Shown: one piece after another, positions 3,133-39,288 of the stretch | Layout of the letters: each line of letters opens with the position of its first letter | How positions within the stretch are numbered: the first letter of the stretch is position 1 | Program-made: the position numbers and the translations under genes | The notes under the pieces: generated by a model | Databases searched by the model: none | What the model was told of the DNA's origin: nothing | Seen by the model: only the letters and a program-made list of their open reading frames with translations | Assembly: GCF_044324875.1 (NCBI RefSeq) | Contig: NZ_CP172185.1 | Direction: 5' to 3' (one strand) | Origin: Escherichia coli | Lineage (GTDB): Bacteria > Pseudomonadota > Gammaproteobacteria > Enterobacterales > Enterobacteriaceae | DNA length: 64,000 bases

Positions 3133-4065
3133 TCAGCCCTTAAACACGTTATAGCCGAGTTGCTTAGCGACCGATGCCACCATTTTTTGACCGCGAACAC
3201 TGTTGCCTTCTTCGTCCAGCGGTGGTGAGAACGCGGCAATTCCCATCACGCCAGGGACGACCGCCAGAATACCGCCACCTACACCGCTTTTGCCCGGTAA
3301 ACCAACGCGATACGCCCAGTCACCGGAGCGACCATACAGCCCTTCCATCATCATTTCAGCCAGAATGTACGGCACGTTGTCGGCCTGAAGAACGCGTTTA
3401 TGCGTCAGCGGATTCACACCACCCGCCGCCAGCGTCGCGCCAAGCGTTGCCAGTTCAACAGTATTGATGAGCGTGGAGCACTGACGGGTGTACACGTCAC
3501 AGGCTTCCATTGCATCACAATAGAGATATCCGGCGGAGTACAGCAGCCAGGCAATGGCCCGGTTATGGAAGTTGGTTGTTTGTTCCGACTGGTTTACTTC
3601 GTCAGAGAGCGCTACCTGCTCACCAGCCAGTTGTTGTTGGATATGTAAAATTCGCTGCCAGCGTTGTTCGGCATTTTCAGCGTTAATCAGGCTGGTGGTG
3701 GCAATAGCGCCAGCATTTACCAGTGGCGACAGCGGTTTGCCGCCATGCAACTCTAAGGCGATAACTGAGTTAAAGGGCAATCCGGTCGGGTCAGCGCCAA
3801 CTTTGTCCTGTACCGCCTGCGGGCCGACATCTTCTAACGCAAGGGCTAACGTACAGACTTTCGAGATGGATTCCAGCGCAAAGCGGTAATCACTCTCACC
3901 CGCGCGATAGATGTTGCCATCGCTGGTCACGATAGCCACTGCCGCCAGTTGACCAGGTACATTCGCCAGAAAGGGAATGTAGTCGGCATTTTGTCCGCCG
4001 TTAAGTGAGTGAAATTGGGTGTAAGCCTGATCCACTGCCTGCTGTAATTTGTTTGCATCTAACAT
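3133..4065 (-). CDS. glsA: Glutaminase 1
   Basis: 310-aa ORF; translation matches the glutaminase (YbaS/GlsA) family as recalled; synteny with ybaT. Confidence 0.92.
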   Translation of the reverse strand: MLDANKLQQAVDQAYTQFHSLNGGQNADYIPFLANVPGQLAAVAIVTSDGNIYRAGESDYRFALESISKVCTLALALEDVGPQAVQDKVGADPTGLPFNSVIALELHGGKPLSPLVNAGAIATTSLINAENAEQRWQRILHIQQQLAGEQVALSDEVNQSEQTTNFHNRAIAWLLYSAGYLYCDAMEACDVYTRQCSTLINTVELATLGATLAAGGVNPLTHKRVLQADNVPYILAEMMMEGLYGRSGDWAYRVGLPGKSGVGGGILAVVPGVMGIAAFSPPLDEEGNSVRGQKMVASVAKQLGYNVFKG

Positions 4066-4255: not shown

Positions 4256-4275
4256 CTTGACCTTCCCCTTGCTGG
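4256..4275. repeat. attL core (direct repeat copy 1)
   Basis: 20/20 identity with 39269..39288; lies 70 bp downstream of the int stop. Confidence 0.8.
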
Positions 4276-14063: not shown

Positions 14064-14090
14064 CAGCCCCGGTCGGGGCTGTTTTTTATT
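14064..14090. terminator. Bidirectional intrinsic terminator between the converging 13664..14050 and 14086..14460 genes
   Basis: cagcccc-ggtc-ggggctg hairpin followed by ttttttatt. Confidence 0.6.
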
Positions 14091-14460
14091 CCAGAATCAG
14101 CTGTTCAGGTGTGCAGCCGTACAGTCTGGCAAGGCGCTCAATATTTGCCCTGCGCGGGCGTTCTGTTCTTTCGAATTCGGACACGGTAGCCTGCCTGATA
14201 CCCAGCGCATCCGCCACCTGCTTTTGCGTCATTCCGCGATAGATTCGCCACGCCGCCTGCATGGTGCAGCCACGTTCCGAGAGGATGTTGACCACCTCGT
14301 TGGGATACAGCGTATCAGGCGATGCACTCGGTTCGTTCTGGACGTCCTCGTAGAGTTCGTCAAGGTCGCTGTCTCCTGCCAGTTTTTCAAACAACGCCAC
14401 TGGCAGAATGACGGATACCCTGTTACCCGCACCGTCAGTAATAAACTGAATCTGACTCAT
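14086..14460 (-). CDS. XRE-family helix-turn-helix protein (124 aa), candidate antitoxin
   Basis: C-terminal HTH_XRE-like segment (MTQKQVADALGIRQATVSEFERTERPRRANIERLARLYG); downstream of and co-oriented with a RelE/ParE-like ORF. Confidence 0.6.
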   Translation of the reverse strand: MSQIQFITDGAGNRVSVILPVALFEKLAGDSDLDELYEDVQNEPSASPDTLYPNEVVNILSERGCTMQAAWRIYRGMTQKQVADALGIRQATVSEFERTERPRRANIERLARLYGCTPEQLILE

Positions 14461-14533
14461 TTGCCCCTCCTGCTAAACATCGGTTTATTTTTTAATTTGC
14501 TGCCGGTGATAAAAAACGGCGGGTCGCCCCGCC

Positions 14534-14806
14534 TTAGTATGTTGTCGAGGTTCTCCGCTGAATACGGAGGATCCTGATAACCACTATCTGCCCTCCCTCA
14601 ATCGTGAACCTGACACGGTAATGATTTACCCTGAGTCTGTACTCCCCGCCCGAGTCAGTGAGCTTTTTAATATCCAGATTCTGGAACTTCGGATAGCCAT
14701 AAAGCGCGTTAACTTTCTCGCGTAAGGATTTCTGATCCCTCGCTGGCAAAACCCGTAAATCTTTGATTGCCCGAGGGGTCCACATGATTTCAGTCGTCAT
14801 AAACAC
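14534..14806 (-). CDS. RelE/ParE-superfamily toxin-like protein (about 88-90 aa; start GTG 14806 or ATG 14800)
   Basis: N-terminal ...WTPRAIKDLRVL... and C-terminal YRLRVNHYRVRF...IVVIRI segments resemble RelE/ParE/HigB-type toxins. Confidence 0.6.
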   Translation of the reverse strand: MFMTTEIMWTPRAIKDLRVLPARDQKSLREKVNALYGYPKFQNLDIKKLTDSGGEYRLRVNHYRVRFTIEGGQIVVIRILRIQRRTSTTY

Positions 14807-25892: not shown

Positions 25893-26789
25893 ATGCCTTC
25901 CGTTGACCTGTCACAGTTACCGGAACCGGCCATCATCGCGCAGCCGGATTTTGAGTCCATCCTGGCAGACATTAAAACCATGATGGTGAGCTCCTTCCCG
26001 GAAGAATACCGCGCCGCCGTCACCCGTGCCCTTACTCTGGAATCCGAGCCATTGAACATCATTTCCCAGGCCATGGCCTTTCGTGAAATGCTGCTTCGCC
26101 AGCGCATCAATGAAGCCGCCCGCGCCTGCATGCTCAGCCACAGCCGGGGCAGTGACCTGGACAATCTGGCCGCCAACAACAACACCCGCCGCCTGGTCAT
26201 TCATCCGGCCACTGATACCACGGAAGCAGTGATGGAAAGCGACACATCGCTGCGTCTGCGTGCCCAGTCAGCCTGGGACGGCCTGAGTGTGGCCGGACCG
26301 TCCGGCGCGTATGAGTATTTTGCCCGGAGCGCAAGCGGTCTTGTCCGTGATGCGCGCGCCATCAGCCCGTCACCGGCCACAGTCACCGTCTCCATCCTGT
26401 CAGCAGACGGTGACGGCACCGCCGGTGAGGCGTTACTGAACACGGTGCGGACCGCCCTGAATGCCGAGAACGTGCGCCCGGTTGCCGACCGCCTGACTGT
26501 GCAGAGTGCTACCATCGTGAACTGGGAAATGGAAGCGAAGCTGTATTTTTATCCAGGGCCGGAGTCTGAACCCATGCTTGCGGCCGCTGACGCCGCTTTC
26601 CGTGCATGGCTGGCAGACCAGGGCCGTATCGGTCAGGACGTGGCCCTGTCAGCCATCACTGCAGCGCTGCATGTTCACGGTGTCCAGCGCGTTGAGGTCA
26701 TAAAACCCACGCAGAACATCACCATCAGTGACACTCAGGCAGCCAGATGTACCACATTCAGCATCAGCGAAGGAGGACGCAATGAGTGA
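25893..26789 (+). CDS. J: Baseplate assembly protein, P2 gpJ family
   Basis: 298 aa (P2 J about 302 aa as recalled), position after W. Confidence 0.8.
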   Translation: MPSVDLSQLPEPAIIAQPDFESILADIKTMMVSSFPEEYRAAVTRALTLESEPLNIISQAMAFREMLLRQRINEAARACMLSHSRGSDLDNLAANNNTRRLVIHPATDTTEAVMESDTSLRLRAQSAWDGLSVAGPSGAYEYFARSASGLVRDARAISPSPATVTVSILSADGDGTAGEALLNTVRTALNAENVRPVADRLTVQSATIVNWEMEAKLYFYPGPESEPMLAAADAAFRAWLADQGRIGQDVALSAITAALHVHGVQRVEVIKPTQNITISDTQAARCTTFSISEGGRNE

Positions 26790-27345
26790 CAGGAAAAAAA
26801 CAGACAGCGCACAGCACAGTACATCACTGCTTCCACCGTCCGCAGGGCCATTCATGCGCGCCACAGAGGCGACAGGAGTACGCATCAGTGCCATACCGGT
26901 GGACGCCGACACCCTGTGGTCGCCGGACCGCTGCCCTGCTCACCTCCTGCCCTACCTTGCATGGGCATGTTCCGTTGACAGCTGGGACCGCAACTGGCCG
27001 GAAGAGACCAGGCGACAGGTGATTCGGGACGCATGGATGATACATCGCCACAAAGGGACCATCAGTGCACTCCGCCGCATCGTTGAACCACTGGGCTACC
27101 TCATCCGTGTATCAGAATGGTGGGAGTTTGACGGCTCGCCCGGGACCTTCACCATTGAGATTGGCACACTTGAAACCGGAGTAAGTGAAGAGGTGCATGA
27201 AGAAATGGAGCGTCTGATTGCCGATGCGCGCCCCGTCAGCCGCCACCTCGTGGGGCTTAGTATCATCCAGGAAATACACGGTGCCATTTACGCCGCTGCC
27301 GCAGGTTACGACGGCGACATCATCACCATTTACCCGGAAGACTGA
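26782..27345 (+). CDS. I: Baseplate protein, P2 gpI family (187 aa from ATG 26782)
   Basis: Position between J and the tail fibre gene. Confidence 0.8.
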   Translation: MSDRKKTDSAQHSTSLLPPSAGPFMRATEATGVRISAIPVDADTLWSPDRCPAHLLPYLAWACSVDSWDRNWPEETRRQVIRDAWMIHRHKGTISALRRIVEPLGYLIRVSEWWEFDGSPGTFTIEIGTLETGVSEEVHEEMERLIADARPVSRHLVGLSIIQEIHGAIYAAAAGYDGDIITIYPED

Positions 27346-27348
27346 ACC

Positions 27349-29229
27349 ATGAGCACGAGAAAATTCAGAACCCTTATCACCGACATCGGGCTGGCAAAGC
27401 TGGCCGCAACAACGGCGCCTGGCGGTAGACCTGTACGCCTTACGCACATGGCTGTAGGGGACGGCAATGGAGAGCTTCGTCAGCCGCAGAAAAACCAGAC
27501 ATCGCTTTACAATGAGGTTTGGCGCCAGTCTGTCAACCGCGTCTTCACCGACCCGGAGAACCCGAACCGCCTCATCGCCGAACTGGTCATTCCTCCTGAA
27601 ACCGGCGGATTCTGGGTGCGTGAAATTGGTGTGTTTGATGATACAGGTACAATGATTGCAGTAGGAAATACCGCTGAAAGTTACAAGCCCACCAGAGAGG
27701 AAGGTTCAGGGCGGGCGCAGATATTCCGTGCAGTAATCACCGTCACCTCCGACGCCGTGGTGGAACTGGTCATGGACACAACAACAATTCTGCCGACCAC
27801 GGACTACATTGATGAGAAAATAGCGGAACACGCACGTTCCCGTAACCACCCTGACGCGACACTGACAGAAAAAGGATTCACCCAACTGAGCAGCGATACA
27901 AACAGCAATTCCGAAACGCTGGCGGCCACACCAAGAGCCGTCAAGGCTGCATATGACCTTGCAGCCCGTAAAGCACCCGCCAGCCACACCCACCCGTGGA
28001 ATCAGATAACTGGTGTGCCATCAGCCTCGCTGACGGCAAAAGGCATCGTACAGCTGAGCAGCGATACAAACAGCAATTCCGAAACGCTGGCGGCCACACC
28101 AAGAGCCGTCAAGGCTGCATATGACCTTGCAGCCGGTAAAGCACCCGCCAGCCACACCCACCCGTGGAATCAGATAACAGGTGTGCCATCAGCCTCGCTG
28201 ACGGCAAAAGGCACCGTACAGCTGAGCAGCGCCACAAACAGTGAGTCAGAGACTGAGGCCGCCACCCCCAAAGCGGTTAAAGCCTTACACGATATGCTGA
28301 CGAGCAAGTATACAGGACAGGATGCAACCACCGGACGCAAAGGCATCGTACAGCTGAGCAGCGCCACAAACAGCAATTCCGAAACGCTGGCGGCCACACC
28401 AAGAGCCGTCAAGGCTGCATATGACCTTGCAGCCAGTAAAGCCTCTGCCAGCCACACCCATCCGTGGAATCAGATAACAGGTGTTCCATCAGCCTCGCTG
28501 ACGGCAAAAGGCATCGTACAGCTGAGCAGCGCCACAAACAGCAATTCCGAAACGCTGGCGGCCACACCAAGAGCTGTTAAAGCTGCGTATGACCTTGCCA
28601 ACAGCAAAGCCGCGGCAGCCCACACTCATCGCTGGGCTCAGATCACAGACGCCCCTGTTTTTTCGTCTGTTGCCCGCGTCATCATGGGTAAACAAAGCAT
28701 AAAAGATATTCTTGATTACCTTGGTTTAGGAGAAGGCTCGACGCTGCCAGTTGGCGTACCCGTTCCGTGGCCTTCGTCAAGACCACCTGAAGGGTGGTTA
28801 CAGTGCAATGGTGCCGCATTCACGCGTACAAAATACCCAAAACTGGCAGTGGCCTACCCTGACCTAAGGCTACCAGATTTGCGCGGGGAATTTATTCGTG
28901 GATGGGATGACCTGCGAATGATTGACAGGGGACGCTTATTGTTATCCACACAGGAAGCAACATATATTTGTACCGCCATACAGGCGTACCACGGCGTAGC
29001 GGGAGGTGCAGATATTCAGGCAGGGATTTCATTTGCATCACATGATAACGACATCATAAACATAACCCCTGATCAACCCAGAACCGGTAACGGCATCCTG
29101 TACGGCAGAAAACCAGTTGACAGATGGGCAATAGCCAGAGCCGGTAAGCTGGTGAGTAATGAAAAAGACAGATGGATAGCGATCAGACCGCGCAATATCG
29201 CTTTTAATTATATTGTGAGGGCAGTTTAA
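27349..29229 (+). CDS. H: Tail fibre protein (gpH-like) with internal 56-aa tandem repeats and C-terminal tail-collar-like domain
   Basis: 626 aa; about five repeats of G(I/T)VQLSS(A/D)TNSNSETLAATPRAVKAAYDLA...SHTHPWNQITGVPSASLTAK; position before the fibre assembly gene. Confidence 0.85.
   Translation: MSTRKFRTLITDIGLAKLAATTAPGGRPVRLTHMAVGDGNGELRQPQKNQTSLYNEVWRQSVNRVFTDPENPNRLIAELVIPPETGGFWVREIGVFDDTGTMIAVGNTAESYKPTREEGSGRAQIFRAVITVTSDAVVELVMDTTTILPTTDYIDEKIAEHARSRNHPDATLTEKGFTQLSSDTNSNSETLAATPRAVKAAYDLAARKAPASHTHPWNQITGVPSASLTAKGIVQLSSDTNSNSETLAATPRAVKAAYDLAAGKAPASHTHPWNQITGVPSASLTAKGTVQLSSATNSESETEAATPKAVKALHDMLTSKYTGQDATTGRKGIVQLSSATNSNSETLAATPRAVKAAYDLAASKASASHTHPWNQITGVPSASLTAKGIVQLSSATNSNSETLAATPRAVKAAYDLANSKAAAAHTHRWAQITDAPVFSSVARVIMGKQSIKDILDYLGLGEGSTLPVGVPVPWPSSRPPEGWLQCNGAAFTRTKYPKLAVAYPDLRLPDLRGEFIRGWDDLRMIDRGRLLLSTQEATYICTAIQAYHGVAGGADIQAGISFASHDNDIINITPDQPRTGNGILYGRKPVDRWAIARAGKLVSNEKDRWIAIRPRNIAFNYIVRAV
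27880..28640 (+). repeat. Tandem 168-bp (56-codon) direct repeats inside the tail fibre gene
   Basis: Repeat unit recurs at 28021, 28189, about 28357 and about 28486 at nucleotide level. Confidence 0.8.
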
Positions 29230-29840
29230 TGAGTAACACTGCAGTTCTGGATGAAAACGGTATCGCCACTTTCGCAGGCGATATCACTGTATATCACTAT
29301 GATGAGGAAACCCGGGAATACACCTCATCCTCTGTGGAGTATCTGGCCCTGGGGGTGGGTACCCCGGCACATTCATGCGCCGATGCCCCGCCAGAGGCAA
29401 TGCCGGGTTACGTGATTTGCCGGACGTCCACGCTGGACGGGTGGGAGTATGTCCCCGATCATCGTGGAGAGACGGTATACAGCACAGAGAACGGTAATCC
29501 GGTCCAGATTACCCAACCAGGTGACTACCCGGAAGGGACAACGACAAAACAGCCTGCCACACCATGGGATACCTGGAACGGTGAGGCGTGGGTAACCGAT
29601 ACAGAACGGCAGCAAGCCGAAGAGCTGGAGGTTGCCAGACAGCAACGCCAGGAACGGGTGGATCAGGCGATGAAGTCCATCGACCTCATCAACCTTAAGT
29701 TGCGGGCAGGTCGCAGTCTGACACCAGAAGAAACGGCAAAACTGAATGCCGTGCTGGATTATATCGACGAGCTGAACGCACTGGATATCAGCACGGGGCC
29801 TGAAATAACCTGGCCGGAAACACCACCAGGAATGGAATGA
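29229..29840 (+). CDS. G: Tail fibre assembly chaperone (gpG/Tfa-like)
   Basis: 203 aa directly after the tail fibre gene. Confidence 0.8.
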   Translation: MSNTAVLDENGIATFAGDITVYHYDEETREYTSSSVEYLALGVGTPAHSCADAPPEAMPGYVICRTSTLDGWEYVPDHRGETVYSTENGNPVQITQPGDYPEGTTTKQPATPWDTWNGEAWVTDTERQQAEELEVARQQRQERVDQAMKSIDLINLKLRAGRSLTPEETAKLNAVLDYIDELNALDISTGPEITWPETPPGME

Positions 29841-29910: not shown

Positions 29911-30399
29911 TCACATCAGATCATTTACGCCGCTTACTGTGGTATTCCAGACCGAACTTAACTTCCCTTTCATTCCCGAAAGCATATCAGACACCGGCGA
30001 CGAGGCCATACTCTCCCGCAAATCCTCATCACAGCGTTCCAGACTGACAGTGAACTCAATTTTTTTGGCCTTACCGTGGCGGTCAAGTTCGCTTCGCGTT
30101 GTGCGGACAGCCGTTATCACATACATGCCGTATATCTGCCCCACACCGTCAATCAGCGGCCATGGGCGACCAGTGTAAGCCTGCGTCGTTAAAAGGCTGA
30201 GGGAAACCTCACCGCCGGTAATTTCGGGATAAAGCACACCGGACAACGTGATCTGGTCGTCACCCGCCCCGATATACTGCCAGCTGGCCGAACGATTGAT
30301 GCGTTCATTTTTAACGTGGCGCCAGGTTTTATTATGTTGCAGTTGTTGATGAGGCAGCGTACGCAACTCAAAAACAAACATGCCGTAAATCATCATCAT
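29911..30399 (-). CDS. U: Tail protein, P2 gpU family
   Basis: 162 aa (P2 U about 159 aa); N-terminus MMMIYGMFVFELRTLPHQ... resembles gpU as recalled. Confidence 0.8.
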   Translation of the reverse strand: MMMIYGMFVFELRTLPHQQLQHNKTWRHVKNERINRSASWQYIGAGDDQITLSGVLYPEITGGEVSLSLLTTQAYTGRPWPLIDGVGQIYGMYVITAVRTTRSELDRHGKAKKIEFTVSLERCDEDLRESMASSPVSDMLSGMKGKLSSVWNTTVSGVNDLM

Positions 30400-30410
30400 G
30401 CGAGGTACTC

Positions 30411-33400
30411 CTAATCTCTGTCACGGAAACTACCGACTGTCTGGCGGATACGGCGTTCCATTTCCGCACGGACGGCATCACCCACCATTTTTGCCAGTTC
30501 GCGCGGGTTTTGCGTGTGAACATCATGCAGGTGAATATGCAGTTCGCCAGTTAATCCCCATGGTGCCGGATCACTCTGACGCGGTCGGGGCGATGCGGGG
30601 GATATGGGCTGGCGTACAGCCTCAACCACCGGACGGGATGTTGCCGTTACGACGGGTGTCATTACCGGCGCAATATTGCCGGACACGACCGGTTTAATTA
30701 CCGGGGAGAGCGTCGGTATAACATCGCCAGCCATAACCGGTTTGATCGCTGGCGAAATAACCGGAGCAACAGACTCAGCCATGACGGAACTGACAGGCTG
30801 AGGCGCTCTCACTATGCCAGCATCGATAACCAGCATGAGCTCGCGTACTGCCTCAAGGACAGGACGGGATATTGCCGCCATCACTGGTGTCATTAGCGGG
30901 GAGAACGTCGGCATGACATCGTGAGTCATAACCGGTTTGATCACCGGCGAAACCACTGGCGTAATATTACCGGACAGTACCGGACGGACGACCGGAGGAA
31001 TAACCGGCACATTATTCACGGACACCACCGGCTTCACGACCGGCGACACGTTCGCCGTGGTGGATATCAGCGGCGAAACACTGACAGGCGGTGGCGCTGG
31101 CAGCGGTGGCAACGAAGGCACACTGACCGACGGCACCTGCGGCAGTCTGACAGGTGGCTCACTGACACTACCCGGTAACAGGGAAGCTGCGCGGTTAAAG
31201 CGTTCCTCCTTCCACTCACCACGAACGGCCAGCGCTTCCGGCAGGTTTTTAAAGATAATATCGCCGGGACCAGTGCGTTTTTTCGCCTGTTTCGCCTCAT
31301 CCAGCAGGCCACCGGTGTTATCGACGATTTTATTCAGGCGACGCATGGTGCCGGTATTCTCCCCCGTCAGCGGAGCAGTTGCTGCAGGTGCAGGTACTGG
31401 CGGCTTTTTGTCTTTGTCATTTTGCGGCGGATTAATGACATTAACATCCGCCAGGAGCATGGCGGCTTTCTCGTTCAGCAGCTCCTTCTGCTTCAGCTCT
31501 TCCGCCTTTTTCCGGGCGCGCTCAACCGCCGACGGAATCAGCCCGAGTTTTTCCAGCACCCGGGTTAACGAGTCAACCAGCAGCGTGACCGGACCGGTCA
31601 CCAGATTGCTGATAAACTCCCCGACCTTCTGCCCGAACGTCCGCCCGGCTTCCGTGCACTTGTCCAGCTCATCCTTTGTTGTGCTTACCGGCGCGAACAG
31701 GTCCACGAACCACTGCCACACACGCCCGATTGTCTGCCCGACGTACTCAAATATCGGTCCCAGCGGTGCCACAGCCTCGCGCAGTGGCGTAAGCCCCTGC
31801 CACAGGCCGGACAGATACCCACCCACGACAGCCTTCAGCTGGTCCCAGTGCCGCCAGATAAGCACTGCCGCACCGACCAGTGCCGCCACCACGAGGCCCA
31901 CCGGACTTAACAGAAAACCCAGCGCCCCGCCAAGTGCGCCCACCGCACCACTCACCATTCCCCACAGCGCAGGCAGACCTGACAGTCTGAGCGCCAGCAT
32001 ACCGATACCGCGCCCCAGAGAAAGCAGAGCACCGCCCGGGGAAGTGAACGCAGCCAGCAGACCACCACGCAGCGTACCGAGTAGTCCGCGCACGCCACGA
32101 AGCCGGACCGCAAGCCGTCCCGCACCGGTATCAAGACCGGCAAACAGCACACGCCAGCCGCCAATACCACTCATCGACCCACCGAGTACGCCGCGCAGCT
32201 GCGTCAGTAACGGCAGCGCACGACCGAGGCCGGATGTGCCGGTCAGCAGGGAAAAGCCAAGACGCAGTTTTGCCAGCGGCCCCAGCAACACGCCGGTAGC
32301 CAGTGACAGCGCCCCCGTGGCCGCAACCGCAGCCAGCAGTGCACCACCGGCAATCAGCAGTTGTTTTGTCAGTTCAGGGTGCGCCTGGGCCAGCGCGGTG
32401 ACTTTCGCAATAACCCGGGTGAACGACTGCGTGACAGAACGCAGCGGCCCGTCAACGAGGTCAGCGACACGGATACGCAGCCCTTCCCATGCGCTGTTCA
32501 GTGATTTCAGGTCGCCGTCCAGGTTGTCCGCCATGATTCTGGCGTTTTCTTCCAGTTCGCCGTTCGCTGCCTGAATCTCACGCGTCAGGCGCGGCAGGTT
32601 TTTTTCGCCTGCCTGTTCAACCAGGCTCATCAGGGAGACATACGCCTCCTGCCCGGCAATATCTGAAAAGAACGAGACTTTTGCCGCGTTACCGTATTTA
32701 CGGGTGGCCTGATACAGCTCATACAGGATATCTTCCATCGGGCGCATGTTCCCGTAAGCATCCTGCGTTTCCACGCCCAGCTGTTTCAGCGCCTTTGCTG
32801 CCGCTTTAGGCGGGTTCACAAGGCGGGACAGACTGGAGCGCAGCGCCGTACCAGCATCACTGCCACGTATCCCCATCGACCCAAGCAACCCGGTCATGGC
32901 TGCGGTCTGTTCAAGAGACAGACCGAGTGAGGCGGCGACCGGTCCCGTATATTTCATCGTCTCACCAAGCCCGCGCAGGTCGGTATTGGTGCGGGTGAAC
33001 GTTGCGGCCAGCGTGTCACCCACGCGGTTCATCTGGTCGGCAGACAACCCGAACTGCGTAAGGATATTTGAGCTGATATCGGCCGTCTGACCGAGGTCCA
33101 TGCCGCTGGCCGTTGCCAGATTCAGCACGCCGGGAAGAGCCGCCTGTATCGCCTGCGGCGTGAACCCCGCCATGGCAAGGAACGCCTGACCGCTGGCAGC
33201 ATCACCTGCGGTAAACTGCGTTTCGGAGCCGAGTTTAAGCGCCTGTTCGCGCAGCGCCTTAAACTGCGGACTGTTTTTGTCAATACGGGTCAGCGCCTGG
33301 ACGCGCGACATCTCCTTACCAAAACTGACCGCCGGTTGCAGGAAACGCCCGGCCGCATAGCCACCTGCCGCTGCCGTGCCGACTGCCGTAAATCCACCCG

Positions 33401-33932
33401 CTTTCAGTTTTCCCGCCATCTCCTGAGCGCGGAAATATTGCTGGCGTGCCTGCGTGACGCGTGCCAGAGTCTGCCGTTCACGTTCCAGCTGTTCGTTGTA
33501 TTGCTGTGTTCGCCGTATGGCCTGTTGAATGGTGTTGTCACTGCCGGAAAGCGCAATACCGTGACGCCGCAGCTCACCACCCAGTTCGCGCATTCGCTGA
33601 ACTTCACGCGCACGGACCTCATTGAGACGCTCAAGTTTGAGGCTCAAATCGTTCATCAGCTTTTTCTGTTTGTCAGACAGCACGGTTCCGGCGCGCTGAA
33701 TTTGCTGAAGTGCGCTTAACTGGCGTTGTGCCCGGGCAATGCCGTTTCCGGCCTTGTTTGCAGCCTCGCGGGCGCGATCAAATGAACGGGCGTGGCGTTC
33801 CAGGTTTTTGATCGCACCCTGCGTTCTCTGTATGGAGTCGCCAAGCTGGCCCATCATGCGACGGGCGTTTTCGGTGGGACGGGTCAGCCTGTCAACAGCG
33901 CTGAAGGCGACCCGTATATCAAGCGTTTTCAT
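30411..33932 (-). CDS. T: Tail tape measure protein (gpT-like), 1173 aa from the ATG overlapping the E' stop, with Pro/Val-rich repetitive C-terminus
   Basis: Very long Ala/Gly/Leu-rich ORF following the E/E' chaperone pair; the ORF track start at 33968 is an over-extension. Confidence 0.85.
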   Translation of the reverse strand: MKTLDIRVAFSAVDRLTRPTENARRMMGQLGDSIQRTQGAIKNLERHARSFDRAREAANKAGNGIARAQRQLSALQQIQRAGTVLSDKQKKLMNDLSLKLERLNEVRAREVQRMRELGGELRRHGIALSGSDNTIQQAIRRTQQYNEQLERERQTLARVTQARQQYFRAQEMAGKLKAGGFTAVGTAAAGGYAAGRFLQPAVSFGKEMSRVQALTRIDKNSPQFKALREQALKLGSETQFTAGDAASGQAFLAMAGFTPQAIQAALPGVLNLATASGMDLGQTADISSNILTQFGLSADQMNRVGDTLAATFTRTNTDLRGLGETMKYTGPVAASLGLSLEQTAAMTGLLGSMGIRGSDAGTALRSSLSRLVNPPKAAAKALKQLGVETQDAYGNMRPMEDILYELYQATRKYGNAAKVSFFSDIAGQEAYVSLMSLVEQAGEKNLPRLTREIQAANGELEENARIMADNLDGDLKSLNSAWEGLRIRVADLVDGPLRSVTQSFTRVIAKVTALAQAHPELTKQLLIAGGALLAAVAATGALSLATGVLLGPLAKLRLGFSLLTGTSGLGRALPLLTQLRGVLGGSMSGIGGWRVLFAGLDTGAGRLAVRLRGVRGLLGTLRGGLLAAFTSPGGALLSLGRGIGMLALRLSGLPALWGMVSGAVGALGGALGFLLSPVGLVVAALVGAAVLIWRHWDQLKAVVGGYLSGLWQGLTPLREAVAPLGPIFEYVGQTIGRVWQWFVDLFAPVSTTKDELDKCTEAGRTFGQKVGEFISNLVTGPVTLLVDSLTRVLEKLGLIPSAVERARKKAEELKQKELLNEKAAMLLADVNVINPPQNDKDKKPPVPAPAATAPLTGENTGTMRRLNKIVDNTGGLLDEAKQAKKRTGPGDIIFKNLPEALAVRGEWKEERFNRAASLLPGSVSEPPVRLPQVPSVSVPSLPPLPAPPPVSVSPLISTTANVSPVVKPVVSVNNVPVIPPVVRPVLSGNITPVVSPVIKPVMTHDVMPTFSPLMTPVMAAISRPVLEAVRELMLVIDAGIVRAPQPVSSVMAESVAPVISPAIKPVMAGDVIPTLSPVIKPVVSGNIAPVMTPVVTATSRPVVEAVRQPISPASPRPRQSDPAPWGLTGELHIHLHDVHTQNPRELAKMVGDAVRAEMERRIRQTVGSFRDRD

Positions 33933-34445
33933 GCTCTGCGTTCCCGCTGCGAAGGGCCGCCCGCTCACGCCAGGCGACCACCTCGCCGGGATCCATCAGG
34001 AAGATTTCAGCGGGAGACCAGTTGAAAATAACGGCGATATCCGCCACAAAGTCTTCAATATGCTCAAAGGGCACGACGGTTATCAGCCTGCCGTCGCCGC
34101 CACGCTCTTCCCGCCAGAGTCCTGACCGGCCAAAAAATTAACCGCCACCCCGCACAGCTGAATAAAATCAGCGGACCCCATGCGCTTAAGCATAACCTCG
34201 TCCAGTCGCGGCGAAGTGACGCGCGGGAGTAACTCAAACATCGCGTCCGTTTTCATGTTCAGCACGTCAAGCAGTGACAGCCCGCGCAGTGAACCGGCCT
34301 GCTGTACAGCAGGCGTGATTTCCACATACGTGATTTTTTTGTTACCGAGCACAAGGGGTGTTTTCAGTGTCACGCCGCGCTCACTGGTCACGTCAGCCAC
34401 ATCAGCACCGTCAGTAACAGGGGCAACAACCGGATTTTCTTTCAT
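33919..34445 (-). CDS. Tail assembly chaperone frameshift product E+E' (programmed -1 frameshift at 34131..34137)
   Basis: Manual translation in the -1 frame after T_TTT_TTG gives an extended product ending at TGA 33919..33921, overlapping the tape measure start. Confidence 0.7.
34083..34445 (-). CDS. E: Tail assembly chaperone, P2 gpE family (zero-frame product)
   Basis: 120-aa ORF upstream of the tape measure gene; carries the slippery heptamer near its 3' end. Confidence 0.8.
   Translation of the reverse strand: MKENPVVAPVTDGADVADVTSERGVTLKTPLVLGNKKITYVEITPAVQQAGSLRGLSLLDVLNMKTDAMFELLPRVTSPRLDEVMLKRMGSADFIQLCGVAVNFLAGQDSGGKSVAATAG
34131..34137 (-). promoter_or_regulatory. Programmed -1 ribosomal frameshift heptamer T TTT TTG (E to E')
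   Basis: Heptamer in frame as (AA)T TTT TTG in the last part of E; conserved mechanism in tail chaperone genes. Confidence 0.7.
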
Positions 34446-34494
34446 GAATAAAACCTCAAATCAGGGGCGACGCCACGCGCCGCCGTGGAAAACA

Positions 34495-35013
34495 TTAACC
34501 ACCAAGACCAATCGCCGAGCGCACGCGGTCCGGGAAGACGCTTTTGCCGTCCTTGCGTTCGATGTGGTTCAGTAAATCAATCTCCAGCACCGGACGGTCG
34601 TTAATGCTGAGTTTGTAGTAGGTACTTTTGACCGCATAGGTGTGAGACGTGACCTCACCCTGTTTGGCCTCCCCGGTATCAATTTCCGTCACGCGACCGC
34701 GAAGCTCAATCTCGTACAGGTCACTCTGTTCTTCATCGTTGTAGTACTCACCGACAAAGCGCAGCAGCGTACCGTCAATCGTGCCGCCGTACTTGAGGAA
34801 CAGTTCGCGGGTCGGCCCGCCCATGGTGAAACTCGCATCCAGCGCGCCGTCATCCAGGCCAAGGTCGATATTTACTGCACCGGCCATACCACCACCGCGA
34901 TAGGCTTCCGTTTTACGGGTCAGTTTGGGGGGCGTGAAGCCGGTCACCCTGCCAATCTGGTTCACCCCGTCAGTAAACAGCGTGAACACCCTGAGATTTT
35001 TTGGTACGGCCAT
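34495..35013 (-). CDS. FII: Tail tube protein, P2 gpFII family
   Basis: 172 aa between the sheath and E genes. Confidence 0.8.
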   Translation of the reverse strand: MAVPKNLRVFTLFTDGVNQIGRVTGFTPPKLTRKTEAYRGGGMAGAVNIDLGLDDGALDASFTMGGPTRELFLKYGGTIDGTLLRFVGEYYNDEEQSDLYEIELRGRVTEIDTGEAKQGEVTSHTYAVKSTYYKLSINDRPVLEIDLLNHIERKDGKSVFPDRVRSAIGLGG

Positions 35014-36296
35014 TAAGCACCTCCAAGCGTCGCAAATGCAGGACCAAAGAATTCATCAGTAAACGTCTGGTAAAGTTCCATATCCTCAAGCGGCGGAACG
35101 GGCGTGTACTTGTAGCGGATACGCACGCGTCCCTGACGAAGTTCCGTGGTGCTGTTATCCACCACGTCATACCAGCACTCCGCACCAACGAGACGTCCTG
35201 ACGTAACCAGCGCATCCAGTTTTGCGCGAATTGCGCTTAACACGTCTTTCACATTAGCAGGGGTCAGCGGGGCATCAATCGTTTCAAACTGCGCTTCCGC
35301 AACAGAATCAGCCAGCACCTGAGCGGTTCGCGTGTACACCTCAAAGATATACGCCTTCGTTTCCGGCGTACGGTTGCCCCAGAAGCGGAAACCGTTACGG
35401 CGAATGATGGTGGTGATTTCCTTGTTGTTGAGATTGTTGGCATCGCTGTCTTCGGACTGAAGGGACCAGAACACCCGGCTGGAAATACCCAGCACATTTC
35501 TTACCGGCACGTTGGACAGCGATTTATGCCAGCCCTGTTCGTGGTCAATACGTGCACGTAAACCGCAGGCGTACGCCGCAGCCGGGAAGACCTCATTAGC
35601 GCCGGATTTCGGGTTATAGGCGATGAAGTCAGGCCAGAGCAGCATAAGTTCGCGCTCGTTAAATCTGGCGCGGTAGCTGATTGCATCAGCGGGCTTCTTG
35701 CAGTTGTGACAGCCCGCGTAGACAAATGCGCGAAGTTTTTCTGCAATTACACACAGGGATTTTGTGACAGCTTCAGTATCCAGTCCGGGAGCTGCGATGA
35801 TGCGCGGACGGTAACCGATGGCATCATCCTGTTCAGCTATCAGAAGTGCATACATACCGGTATAATTACCGTCGCCATCCGTGCCACCAATGACATACTG
35901 GTCCTGCGTTTTGTGTGGGTATACAGGATGTGCATCTTCAGACTCATCAATACCAAAAAATGCCCTGTCTTCAGGATCCAGATGACCGAATGATGTAACT
36001 CCTGTATCCGGGGCGCCCTGAGAACTGGCATCAGGAACGCGCACCACAATCACCTTCGTGCTCACCTGGTCGGCGACAGCCTTAAGCGATTTGTAAAGCG
36101 TCCCCTTTGTGCCGGCCTTACCCAGCACATCACTGACGCGGGTCAGCAGTGTGGGTTTGTTCAGCGGGAACAGAGTTTCATCCGCGTCATCTGCCGTAGC
36201 CACAATACCAATAACACTGGAATCCACATCATTAATGGCGGTGGCAAGGCCGGTACTTTCCCTTACGCGCGCACCATGAAAGCGTGTTTCACTCAT
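35013..36296 (-). CDS. FI: Tail sheath protein, P2 gpFI family (427 aa from ATG 36296)
   Basis: Motifs collinear with P2 FI as recalled (LNKP, KGTLY, EQGWHK, GFRFWGNRT, NYTRTAQV, YTPVPPLE); the ORF track start at 36443 is an over-extension. Confidence 0.88.
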   Translation of the reverse strand: MSETRFHGARVRESTGLATAINDVDSSVIGIVATADDADETLFPLNKPTLLTRVSDVLGKAGTKGTLYKSLKAVADQVSTKVIVVRVPDASSQGAPDTGVTSFGHLDPEDRAFFGIDESEDAHPVYPHKTQDQYVIGGTDGDGNYTGMYALLIAEQDDAIGYRPRIIAAPGLDTEAVTKSLCVIAEKLRAFVYAGCHNCKKPADAISYRARFNERELMLLWPDFIAYNPKSGANEVFPAAAYACGLRARIDHEQGWHKSLSNVPVRNVLGISSRVFWSLQSEDSDANNLNNKEITTIIRRNGFRFWGNRTPETKAYIFEVYTRTAQVLADSVAEAQFETIDAPLTPANVKDVLSAIRAKLDALVTSGRLVGAECWYDVVDNSTTELRQGRVRIRYKYTPVPPLEDMELYQTFTDEFFGPAFATLGGA

Positions 36297-36393: not shown

Positions 36394-36457
36394 AAACAGC
36401 CATTCAACGCCGCTACGGTGCATGAAACCATTACAGAACGCACCAGGAGAGAACACC

Positions 36458-37549
36458 ATGAAAGAGCTGTCAGTTACCGTTCCGTCACCGGATATCGACA
36501 TCACCATCAACAACAACACACTGGCAAACCTCACAGAGCGACTCATGACGCTGACCCTGACGGATAACCGGGCCTTTGAGGCAGACCGCGTCACCCTCAC
36601 CCTTGACGATACGGACGGGCAGTTACAGTTGCCACCACGTGGCGCACGCCTGAGAGTGATGATTGGCTGGCGCGGGGAGGCGCTGGTTAACAAGGGTGTC
36701 TACATCGTTGATGAAGTGACGTGGGAAGGCCCGCCGGACAAACTGACCATCACCGCCAGCAGCGCCGATTTTCGCGAAGAGTTCAACGTGAAGCGTGAAG
36801 TCTCCTGGCACGACGTGACGGTAAAACAGGTTGTGTCAGCCATCGCGCACCGCTACGGCCTGAAAGCACAGATAAGCGATATCCTCATGGATATCGAAAT
36901 TGACCACGCAGACCAGACCGAAGAGAGTGATATATCCTTCCTGACCCGCATGGCTGAAATGCTGGGTGCGATTGCCACCGTAAAAAACGGCAGCCTGTTA
37001 TTCATTCTGCCGGGTGGCGGAACCGGGCCGGACGGAAAAGCCCTGCCTTCGTTCGCCATTACCCGCAGCAGCGGCGACAGTCACCGCTTTCGCATTGCTG
37101 ACCGTGATGCGTATACGGGGGTCCGGGCGCACTGGCTCGATCTGAAGTTCGGGCAAAAGAAAAAAGTGAACGTGAAGCGACGCAGGGAAGCCGGGAAACA
37201 GAAACAGGAGAAGAGCAGCAGCCGGGAAGGTGATTACATGGAAGGCGCGGAAGGTAACGTCTACGTTCTGCGCAGGACTTACCAGAATGAAGAAACCGCA
37301 CGACGTGCAGCAGCTGCAAAGTGGCAGGAACTACAGCGGGGCGCGGCATCATTCTCCATCACGCTGGCGCGCGGTCGTGCCGACCTGTACCCTGAAATGC
37401 ACGGCAGGGTAACAGGTTTTAAAAGCGAGGTGGACAATCAGGACTGGATTATTGCCAGGGTGGAGCACAGCATAGATGAAAGCGGCTTCACCACACAACT
37501 GGAGCTGGAAGCGAAAATCCCCGAATGGATAGCAGATTCAGGCGGATAA
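36458..37549 (+). CDS. D: Tail protein D (gpD-like), 363 aa from ATG 36458
   Basis: Size and position before ogr as P2 D; AGGAGA ribosome binding site upstream of ATG 36458. Confidence 0.8.
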   Translation: MKELSVTVPSPDIDITINNNTLANLTERLMTLTLTDNRAFEADRVTLTLDDTDGQLQLPPRGARLRVMIGWRGEALVNKGVYIVDEVTWEGPPDKLTITASSADFREEFNVKREVSWHDVTVKQVVSAIAHRYGLKAQISDILMDIEIDHADQTEESDISFLTRMAEMLGAIATVKNGSLLFILPGGGTGPDGKALPSFAITRSSGDSHRFRIADRDAYTGVRAHWLDLKFGQKKKVNVKRRREAGKQKQEKSSSREGDYMEGAEGNVYVLRRTYQNEETARRAAAAKWQELQRGAASFSITLARGRADLYPEMHGRVTGFKSEVDNQDWIIARVEHSIDESGFTTQLELEAKIPEWIADSGG

Positions 37550-37592
37550 AATTAAAATGAGCCATCTCCACTCAGCCAGATAAGGAGAAGCC

Positions 37593-37844
37593 ATGTTCCG
37601 TTGTCCCCTGTGCGGTGCATCCGCACGTATCCGCACCAGTCGCAATGAAAATGATTCAGGCACAGTTCGCCTGAAGTACTACCAGTGCAATAACCTCGAA
37701 TGCGGGATCGGCTTTACCACACTGGAGGGTTTTAACAAATTCACATCAAAACGCGCCCCGTCGCCGCAGGGTACAGAGCGGATACCGTGGGAAGATTTTC
37801 CGGGATCTCACAGGGGGAATGCTCAGATGAATCTTGATATTTAA
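37593..37844 (+). CDS. ogr: Zinc-finger late gene activator, Ogr/Delta family
   Basis: 83 aa with CPLC...C-x4-C zinc-finger spacing and N-terminus MFRCPLCG resembling P2 Ogr (MFHCPLC...). Confidence 0.88.
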   Translation: MFRCPLCGASARIRTSRNENDSGTVRLKYYQCNNLECGIGFTTLEGFNKFTSKRAPSPQGTERIPWEDFPGSHRGNAQMNLDI

Positions 37845-39268: not shown

Positions 39269-39288
39269 CTTGACCTTCCCCTTGCTGG
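39269..39288. repeat. attR core (direct repeat copy 2)
   Basis: Identical to 4256..4275. Confidence 0.8.

What the first reader, a model, noticed from the sequence alone, without database searches (positions are those of the whole stretch)
27880..28640. Tandem 168-bp in-frame repeats in the tail fibre gene
About five copies of a 56-aa unit with near-identical nucleotide sequence. Such arrays can expand or contract by slipped recombination, changing fibre length and possibly host range. The near-identity suggests recent duplication or gene conversion.
Basis: seen in the sequence. Interest (0 to 1): 0.4.

Follow-up and report, generated by a model that had tools for sequence, protein, structure and literature searches.

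The report
Variable repeat array in prophage tail fibre
The repeats are real and belong to a well-known phage tail-fibre repeat family; close relatives carry different numbers and orders of the units, so the array does grow, shrink and reshuffle by recombination, which is ordinary tail-fibre biology.

Summary
ORF 27349-29229 (+, 626 aa) is the gpH-type tail fibre of a P2-family prophage in Escherichia coli, inserted between glsA and copA. It carries five in-frame Pfam PF03406 (Phage_fiber_2) units at 27871-28674. Three are 56-aa units with an HxH motif, 91-95% identical in DNA. One is a 44-aa variant with no HxH motif, about 55% identical. The last is a terminal unit, 71-78% identical.

Among 115 database proteins with the same N- and C-terminal ends there are 14 unit orders of 5-8 units, and the window's order is a fifteenth.

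The window gene is 1881/1881 nt identical to a relative's gene apart from one 522-nt in-frame indel, whose junction lies in a 23-nt stretch shared by unit starts. A second relative differs by one 558-nt indel plus a patch that looks like gene conversion.

Most relatives have one unit carrying an R-pyocin-type knob domain, a proposed second binding site. The window allele lacks it.

Effects on fibre length and host range are inferred, not tested. The kind of feature is already known, so interest is low.

The parts
27349..29229 (+). Tail-fibre gene (P2 gpH type), 626 aa
   Evidence: ORF listing and translation. Pfam finds PF12571, five PF03406 stretches, PF12789 and PF07484. The exact protein is in public databases as an E. 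coli tail fiber protein, on 9 contigs.
27358..27801 (+). N-terminal baseplate-attachment domain (PF12571, aa 4-151)
   Evidence: E 5.2e-50. Relatives show 1 mismatch in the first 522 nt of the gene.
27871..28038 (+). Unit U1 (type A, 56 aa, Pf2 core plus HxH tail). HxH codons at 27985-27993.
   Evidence: Nt 16-168 are 153/153 identical to unit 5 of the L001 and L008 alleles, while the first 15 nt match their unit 1. This looks like a conversion patch.
28039..28206 (+). Unit U2 (type A). HxH codons at 28153-28161.
   Evidence: It is 168/168 identical to units in seven related loci.
28207..28338 (+). Unit U3 (type B, 44 aa, no HxH)
   Evidence: Pfam PF03406, E 2.4e-16. Against A units it has 13-15 synonymously different codons in the 36-codon core.
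28339..28506 (+). Unit U4 (type A). HxH codons at 28453-28461. It is a hybrid of the head of relatives' knob unit and the body of their unit 6.
28507..28674 (+). Unit U5 (terminal type T). HxH codons at 28621-28629. It leads into the C-terminal domain.
   Evidence: PF12789 matches aa 418-434.
28039..28061 (+). Junction interval of the 522-nt in-frame indel (units B+C) relative to locus L010. It is a 23-nt stretch identical on both sides.
   Evidence: 0 mismatches in 1881 nt under a single-indel model.
28347..28400 (+). Junction interval of the 558-nt in-frame indel relative to L001, L002 and (by protein comparison) P0019-type alleles (AABCAAT)
   Evidence: 15 mismatches in 1881 nt against L001, 11 of them in the U1 patch. 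One search gives the protein-level version.
28753..28896 (+). Collar domain (PF07484, aa 469-516) of the C-terminal receptor-binding region
   Evidence: T4 gp37 tip (PDB 2XGF) matches aa 463-521 at E 2e-12.
29229..29840 (+). Tail-fibre assembly chaperone (Caudo_TAP, gpG-like)
   Evidence: E 1.4e-27. Annotated as tail fiber assembly protein in relatives.
25893..27345 (+). Baseplate genes gpJ (25893-26789) and gpI (26728-27345) directly upstream
   Evidence: PF04865, PF09684.

Best explanation
The array encodes the middle shaft of a trimeric P2-type tail fibre. It is built from Phage_fiber_2 (PF03406) units of about 36 aa, each followed by one of several tails. Type A has a 20-aa HxH segment. 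By analogy with T4 gp37 and the R-pyocin fibres, three chains would contribute six histidines to bind one buried iron ion. Type B has a short 8-aa linker. Type C, found in relatives only, has an 86-aa pyocin-type knob domain.

At the DNA level all unit types share a nearly identical first 35 nt or so, and types A, C and T share about 60 nt. Misaligned homologous recombination or replication slippage between units therefore gives in-frame deletions, duplications, reorderings and conversion patches. The partner could be within one gene, a sister copy or a co-resident related prophage.

The window allele (A-A-B-A-T) is a short, knob-less product of such events. It is one 522-nt indel away from an A-B-C-A-B-A-T allele. 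The comparisons show the recombination history. Two things are inferred: that these changes alter fibre length, and that they alter the presence or spacing of a second binding site and hence adsorption or host range.
For: Family and context come (Pfam; P2-family prophage gene order in relatives).

HxH is strictly linked to the 56-aa unit: 53 of 53 units spaced 56 aa apart have it, against 0 of 102 units spaced 44 aa apart. H39, H41 and W43 are invariant in diverse units. HxH sites bind Fe in T4 gp37, the P2 gpV spike and the R1/R2 pyocin fibre shaft (PMC6116203, read).

One Pf2 unit is present in the solved Mu gpS fibre, PDB 5YVQ and 8JU3.

Variable architecture. Single-event relationships: 1881/1881 nt identity plus one 522-nt indel, with flanks at 5/2274 and 0/2044 mismatches; 558-nt indel; U1 body identical to a relative's unit 5; 1/522 and 0/555 mismatches outside the array.

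The shared unit heads are 86-100% identical over nt 1-36 in every class pair, then fall to 36-58% for A against B. Both reconstructed junctions lie in this head region.

Homogenisation rather than protein constraint is shown. The knob identity of the type C insert rests on a profile match to PDB 6CT8, 6CL6 and 6CL5 (E 7.6e-16 to 2.1e-13). A model with pLDDT 74 also matches the same entries at TM 0.6 and rmsd 2.5 A. Knob2 is proposed as a second binding site about 100 A from the tip (PMC6116203).

There is experimental precedent that tail-fibre duplications arise and are selected: Enterococcus phage EfV12-phi1 (PMC6365445), and T4 gp37 in Tetart et al. 1996, which that paper cites.
Against: No functional data exist for this fibre, and length or knob changes may be neutral. 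The trimer structure of the A unit could not be modelled: the linked-trimer AlphaFold run gave pLDDT 30.6. Metal binding and rise per unit are therefore unverified.

The closest relative, L010, comes from a 6.7-kb draft contig, so its unit order could in principle be an assembly product. The direction of each event (deletion or insertion) is inferred only from the prevalence of the knob unit. The donor of the U1 patch is absent from the window's own array, so at least that step involved an ancestral or foreign copy.
Confidence: 0.85

Rival explanations
1. The copy-number differences are assembly artefacts. Short-read assemblers collapse or misjoin 168-nt repeats, so the window and its relatives may really have the same array.
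For: Many members of the window protein's 90% cluster are partial proteins from contigs of 0.2-2.2 kb that break in or near the array. The nearest relative, L010, is a 6.7-kb draft contig.
Against: Nine of the related loci fetched come from RefSeq complete-genome assemblies, and together they show five unit orders. The exact window protein occurs on 9 contigs, one of 5.75 Mb. Other architectures recur on tens to hundreds of contigs, for example 444 and 232. All five window units are distinguishable from one another. The indels include unique knob sequence, which cannot arise by collapse.
Confidence: 0.04
2. The diversity comes mainly from exchange between different phages or prophages, that is, modular swapping of fibre segments between co-resident P2-like or lambdoid elements carrying Pf2 repeats. 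Slippage within one array would then play a minor part.
For: E. coli genomes hold up to 15 places matching this gene. Strains LH50-c and TUM9803 each carry two related P2-like prophages with different arrays. The U1 patch matches a unit type that is absent from the window's own array. CS5L has the same prophage backbone with a different C-terminal domain.
Against: The 522-nt indel sits in an otherwise 100% identical gene with near-identical flanks. That is most simply an event within one lineage. The two routes use the same homology and do not exclude each other.
Confidence: 0.35
3. The array is a programmed high-frequency switch, like a contingency locus, producing mixed fibre lengths within every lysate.
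For: Long tandem near-identical in-frame repeats in a host-recognition gene, with many architectures in nature. A clonal phage isolate showed mixed copy numbers in the Enterococcus phage experiment.
Against: There is no dedicated machinery next to the gene: no invertase, and the flanking genes are baseplate, chaperone and tail genes. The same allele is stable enough to be found in several isolates, and common alleles are found on hundreds of contigs. Units of 132-390 nt recombine at ordinary homologous-recombination rates (general knowledge, not measured here).
Confidence: 0.07
4. The repeats are a tolerated structural spacer. Copy-number change is real but selectively neutral and does not affect host range, which is set by the C-terminal domain and its chaperone.
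For: Host-range engineering of P2 fibres works by swapping the C-terminal region (PMC9942202). All 15 architectures keep the same C-terminal domain.
Against: Rearrangements add, remove or reposition a pyocin-type knob that is proposed to be a second binding site. Duplications in other fibres were selected under host resistance.
Confidence: 0.4

Closest known systems
Phage_fiber_2 (Pfam PF03406, 'Pf2') repeats of lambda Stf and related prophage side tail fibres
   Same: Same repeat family (five stretches, 304.9 bits). Pf2 was first noted in lambda Stf and occurs in many E. coli prophage fibres (PMC3368898). The unit is widespread: 1291 cluster representatives at 50% identity match at E<=1e-3, with 1-17 matched stretches per protein.
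   Different: Here the repeats sit in a P2 gpH-type fibre (PF12571 N-terminus) rather than a lambdoid Stf (PF08400 N-terminus). They form a mixed array of HxH, short and, in relatives, knob-bearing units.
Phage Mu tail fibre gpS (PDB 5YVQ, 8JU3)
   Same: Contains one Pf2 unit (KGLVQLTSATDSPSETLAATAKAVKIAMDNA) that aligns to the window units, E 5e-8. It is also the fibre of a contractile-tailed phage and also has a Tfa-type chaperone.
   Different: It has a single copy, no HxH tail after the unit, and a different receptor-binding domain.
T4 gp37 distal fibre: HxH iron sites, and duplications and recombination at conserved motifs ('His boxes')
   Same: The Collar domain and C-terminal NIAFNYIVR motif match PDB 2XGF. 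HxH motifs occur in a trimeric fibre. Tetart et al. [quoted passage not shown] That recombination at conserved motifs swaps fibre segments in T-even phages is from my own knowledge (Tetart et al. 1998); it was not read here.
   Different: The T4 repeats are short motifs within the tip needle rather than 44-130-aa Pf2 modules. No experimental link to host range exists for the present array.
R1/R2 pyocin fibres (PDB 6CL5, 6CL6, 6CT8)
   Same: P2-like fibre with shaft repeats, one HxH-Fe site and knob domains. The authors state that repeats allow the fibre length to be adjusted. The insert in the relatives' type C unit is homologous to the pyocin knob.
   Different: The pyocin shaft uses very short helix-plus-turn repeats that are not detectable in sequence, not Pf2 units. 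The window allele has no knob.
Tandem duplications in the tail-fibre gene of Enterococcus phage EfV12-phi1
   Same: In-frame tandem copy-number change inside a myovirus fibre gene, with mixed copy numbers seen in long reads of a phage isolate.
   Different: The unit is 1.8 kb and arose de novo under selection in the laboratory. It is unrelated in sequence.

Membership tests
Pfam PF03406 Phage_fiber_2 repeat | Match to the family HMM above the gathering score, in repeated stretches | tested here: met
   304.9 bits against a cut-off of 22, five stretches. Single A, B and C units each match at E 1.8e-18, 2.4e-16 and 4.1e-15.
P2 gpH-type tail fibre | N-terminal PF12571 domain that docks to the baseplate | tested here: met
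   aa 4-151, E 5.2e-50.
P2 gpH-type tail fibre | Gene order: baseplate J, I, then the fibre, then a Tfa chaperone, inside a P2-family prophage | tested here: met
   (PF04865, PF09684, PF02413). Relatives' annotation shows P2-family capsid, gpO, gpM, gpV, gpW, gpU, gpD and ogr.
P2 gpH-type tail fibre | Homotrimeric fibre on the virion that binds the host surface | not testable with these tools
   The linked-trimer model failed (pLDDT 30.6). There are no virion data.
HxH iron-binding site of trimeric fibres and spikes (T4 gp37, P2 gpV, R-pyocin fibre) | His-x-His motif conserved in each chain | tested here: met
   SHTHPW in U1, U2 and U4 and AHTHRW in U5. H39 and H41 are invariant in 11 diverse units. 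53 of 53 56-aa units carry HxH.
HxH iron-binding site of trimeric fibres and spikes (T4 gp37, P2 gpV, R-pyocin fibre) | Six histidines from three chains coordinate one buried Fe ion octahedrally | tested here: inconclusive
   The model is unusable. This needs a trimer structure or metal analysis.
T4 gp37/gp12-type Collar receptor-binding region | PF07484 Collar domain and similarity to the gp37 tip | tested here: met
   (50.2 bits against 24). (2XGF, E 2e-12; short tail fibre 9CUY, E 1.1e-10).
R-pyocin knob domain | Homology to Knob2 of PA0620 | tested here: not met
   The window allele has no such segment. It is present in the relatives' 130-aa unit: profile E 7.6e-16 and fold match at TM 0.6.
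Contingency locus or programmed hypervariable repeat | High-frequency, reversible copy-number change within a clonal population | not testable with these tools
   No read data. Only between-strain variation was seen.

The most novel reading that the evidence does not exclude
The array may be a natural module-shuffling system. A nearly invariant 35-60-nt head on every unit type would act as a universal crossover site. HxH, short and knob modules could then be inserted, removed and reordered without touching the baseplate-binding or tip domains. That would set both fibre length and the presence and position of a second, knob-borne binding site. Knob-less short alleles such as the window's would have a measurably different host range or adsorption behaviour.
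Probability: 0.25. Interest if true: 0.45.

Novelty: already known. Interest (0 to 1): 0.2.

Why it matters
It matters modestly. It is a clean natural example, resolved to single events, of how repeat-mediated recombination remodels a phage host-recognition fibre while its two ends stay constant. The set of naturally tolerated architectures (15 orders of A, B, C and T units) could guide engineering of P2, P4 or pyocin-type fibres of different length, with or without a knob. It also warns that this gene is easily broken or collapsed in short-read assemblies and is sometimes misnamed in databases.

Tried and rejected
1. An AlphaFold2 model of a GS-linked trimer of two A units, with an 11-row alignment, gave pLDDT 30.6 and pTM 0.25. 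It is unusable, so no claim is made about the unit's fold, its rise per unit or its metal site.

2. Megablast against the phage collection found only two partial matches at 81-83% identity. The relatives are prophages in E. coli genomes, not deposited phages.

3. Sequence searches of the relatives' 130-aa unit against the PDB and Pfam recognised only its Pf2 head. A profile of eight homologues was needed to reach the pyocin knob.

4. Chi-stimulated recombination: the search found no Chi site in the prophage, all 9 matches lying at position 3691 or beyond 40102 in the flanking chromosome. Chi is therefore not involved.

5. Other Pf2 copies in the window that could act as donors: none found.

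6. A literature search for 'His box' with tail fiber and recombination found nothing in the open library. The T-even motif-recombination precedent is therefore cited from memory and through a citing paper.

7. Assembly artefact was considered and judged unlikely; see the rival explanations.

Full report
**Observation**

Tandem Repeats Finder reports two overlapping arrays. One has period 168 (27886-28241, 2.1 copies, 97% matches, score 677). The other has period 300 (28039-28583, 1.8 copies, 91% matches, score 936). The region lies in a 626-aa ORF, 27349-29229 on the + strand.

Splitting the protein at the recurring K-G-x-x-Q-L-S-S motif gives five in-frame units:

| Unit | Coordinates | Length |
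|---|---|---|
| U1 | 27871-28038 | 56 aa |
| U2 | 28039-28206 | 56 aa |
| U3 | 28207-28338 | 44 aa |
| U4 | 28339-28506 | 56 aa |
| U5 | 28507-28674 | 56 aa, continuous with the C-terminal domain |

DNA identity is 95.2% for U1/U2, 95.2% for U2/U4 and 91.1% for U1/U4. U5 is 71-78% identical to the others, and U3 is 52-61%. The 300-nt period is the A+B pair. No further copies occur elsewhere in the window.

**What the gene is**

Pfam finds the following in the protein:
- the P2-type fibre N-terminal domain PF12571 (aa 4-151, E 5e-50);
- five stretches of PF03406 Phage_fiber_2 (304.9 bits against a cut-off of 22);
- a weak PF12789 match over AAAAHTHRWAQITDAPV;
- the PF07484 Collar domain (aa 469-516).

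The upstream ORFs are baseplate J and P2 gpI. The downstream ORF is a Caudo_TAP fibre chaperone. The flanks of the window are E. coli chromosome, 99.0% identical to several genomes.

Relatives' annotation shows a P2-family prophage running from integrase to ogr, inserted between glsA and copA. The exact protein is already public as an E. coli 'tail fiber protein', on 9 contigs including one of 5.75 Mb.

Among solved structures, the Collar region and C-terminal motif match the T4 gp37 tip, PDB 2XGF (E 2e-12). One Pf2 unit is present in Mu gpS, PDB 5YVQ and 8JU3.

**Unit grammar**

A 56-aa unit (type A) is a Pf2 core of about 36 aa plus an 'APASHTHPWNQITGVPSASLTA' tail. A 44-aa unit (type B) has the same core plus a short 'YTGQDATTGR' tail.

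Across 150 diverse cluster representatives, every unit spaced 56 aa from the next has HxH (53 of 53) and none spaced 44 aa does (0 of 102). H39, H41 and W43 are invariant in an alignment of diverse A units.

HxH motifs in trimeric fibres and spikes form octahedral six-histidine iron sites in T4 gp37, P2 gpV and the R1/R2 pyocin fibre shaft (PMC6116203). The window fibre would have four such sites. That is an inference: my attempt to model a linked trimer failed at pLDDT 30.6.

Relatives carry a third unit type, C, of 130 aa: a Pf2 head plus an 86-aa insert. A profile of that insert matches the R2/R1 pyocin fibre knob in PDB 6CT8, 6CL6 and 6CL5 at E 7.6e-16 to 2.1e-13. A monomer model with pLDDT 74 finds the same entries first, at TM 0.6 and rmsd 2.5 A. 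In pyocins, Knob2 is proposed as a second cell-surface binding site about 100 A from the tip. The window allele has no knob.

**Copy number among relatives**

It is not fixed. Loci from complete E. coli genomes with the same N-terminal domain show these unit orders:

| Unit order | Loci |
|---|---|
| AABCAAT | L001, L002, L008, L009 |
| ABABAT | L003 |
| AABCAT | L004 |
| ABCABT | L005, L006 |
| ABAABABAAT, with a different C-terminal domain | L007 |
| AABAT | the window |

Of the 120 best database proteins, 115 share both the N- and C-terminal ends. They fall into 14 orders of 5-8 units, and the window's order is not among them.

Four of the genomes (CM2, CS5L, LH50-c, Ch1) carry the prophage at the same chromosomal site, with 99.0-99.5% identity over the 24.3 kb upstream of the fibre gene. 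They have three different arrays. Family-wide, a single A unit finds 1291 cluster representatives at 50% identity (E<=1e-3), with 1 to 17 matched stretches each.

**Reconstructed events**

1. Locus L010 (GCA_958307545.1, an 800-aa protein, A-B-C-A-B-A-T) is the closest relative. Under a single-indel model the window gene is 1881/1881 nt identical. The difference is one 522-nt in-frame block (B+C). Its junction cannot be placed more finely than a 23-nt stretch identical on both sides, window 28039-28061. The flanks differ at 5 of 2274 nt upstream and 0 of 2044 nt downstream.

2. Against L001 (AABCAAT, 812 aa) a single 558-nt indel, with its junction in 28347-28400, leaves 15 mismatches. Eleven of these cluster in U1.

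3. That cluster is explained by a mosaic. Window U1 has the first 15 nt of the relative's unit 1, followed by 153 of 153 nt identical to the relative's unit 5. Window U4 has the head of the relative's knob unit followed by the body of its unit 6. Outside the array the genes differ at 1 of 522 and 0 of 555 positions.

These are the signatures of unequal homologous exchange and gene conversion. Because the knob unit is present in most relatives, deletion in the window lineage is the more economical direction, but that is an inference.

**Why the units recombine in frame**

All unit classes share a nearly identical head. Identity is 86-100% over nt 1-36 for every class pair. It stays at or above 94% to nt 60 between A and C, and at or above 92% between A and T. 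It then falls to 36-58% between A and B. Both junctions lie in this head.

The near-identity of the A units is not imposed by the protein. B encodes much the same core with 13-15 synonymously different codons out of 36, against 1-3 between A units. No Chi site lies in the prophage.

I cannot distinguish replication slippage, sister-chromosome exchange and exchange with a second related prophage. Some strains do carry two such prophages.

**Function**

The comparisons establish that recombination remodels the array while both ends stay constant. It is an inference that this changes fibre length, iron-site number, and the presence and position of a knob, and thereby adsorption or host range.

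Precedents exist. The pyocin-fibre authors argue that repeats allow length to be adjusted. In-frame tandem duplications in a myovirus fibre gene arose repeatedly under host resistance (PMC6365445). [quoted passage not shown]

Against this, host-range engineering of P2 fibres usually needs only the C-terminal region (PMC9942202). A neutral-spacer reading therefore remains plausible.

**Comparison and novelty**

This is a member of a curated repeat family, in a known kind of protein, showing a known kind of plasticity. The exact sequence is already in public databases. The event-level reconstruction, the A/B/C unit grammar and the knob-less state of this allele are useful details, not a new kind of system. 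Interest is low (0.2).

The most novel reading still open is a module-shuffling system that tunes a second binding site. I put it at about 25%.

Noticed in passing
window 4256-4275 and 39269-39288: A 20-bp direct repeat, CTTGACCTTCCCCTTGCTGG, brackets the prophage and is probably the att core. The right copy runs on into the dyad ACCTTCC...GGAAGGT, 53 nt upstream of the copA ATG (39342). From memory this is the copA promoter with its CueR operator. The phage would then integrate into that promoter and regenerate it at the copA side.
   Followed up: partly
window 1-64000 (Chi sites at 3691, 40102, 42485, 42866, 45251, 48441, 50815, 56929, 57309): All nine Chi sequences (GCTGGTGG) lie in the chromosomal flanks and none in the ~35-kb prophage. 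Shuffles predict 2.5 for the whole window.
   Followed up: partly
window about 29911-36296 (- strand) against 36457-37843 (+ strand): The tail block gpU, tape measure, gpE/E', tube and sheath is on the minus strand. The fibre and chaperone genes upstream, and gpD and ogr downstream, are on the plus strand. The block is therefore inverted relative to the colinear order I recall for P2. Coordinates were mapped from the annotation of L009.
   Followed up: no
window 30411-33968 (-); L009 4171-7703: RefSeq relatives annotate the tape-measure gene as an incomplete pseudogene and leave 1.7 kb unannotated. Both the window and L009 nevertheless have an uninterrupted open frame of about 1190 codons there. 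This is probably an annotation artefact.
   Followed up: partly
window about 14086-14785 (-), mapped from L008 14587-15286: The prophage carries a RelE-family toxin gene next to a helix-turn-helix gene, a likely toxin-antitoxin pair, between the replication and packaging modules.
   Followed up: no
L001 3616-4005 (unit 4 of the relative's fibre gene): Relatives have a 130-aa unit whose 86-aa insert is an R-pyocin-type knob domain that Pfam does not recognise. Its position along the shaft differs between alleles.
   Followed up: yes
E. coli LH50-c (NZ_CP100500.1) and TUM9803 (NZ_CP135671.1): Single genomes carry two related P2-like prophages with different fibre arrays. In LH50-c the 670-aa and 744-aa proteins are on the same 5,559,392-bp chromosome. 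TUM9803 has matches near 2.65 Mb and 5.0 Mb. These could act as recombination partners.
   Followed up: partly
database entries for the window protein and its relatives: Several sources name this tail-fibre protein 'short-chain fatty acid transporter', a propagated misannotation. Many entries are partial proteins from contigs that break in the repeat array.
   Followed up: no
L008 26394-27290 (E. coli CM2): In this otherwise 99.5% identical prophage the baseplate J gene has an internal stop. The window's copy (25893-26789) is intact. Some members of this prophage group are therefore decaying.
   Followed up: no
window 27706-27993, 28170-28457 and 28489-28695 (- strand): Minus-strand ORFs of 68-95 codons lie inside or overlap the repeat array. 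I take them to be by-products of the repeated sequence rather than genes, but I did not test them.
   Followed up: no
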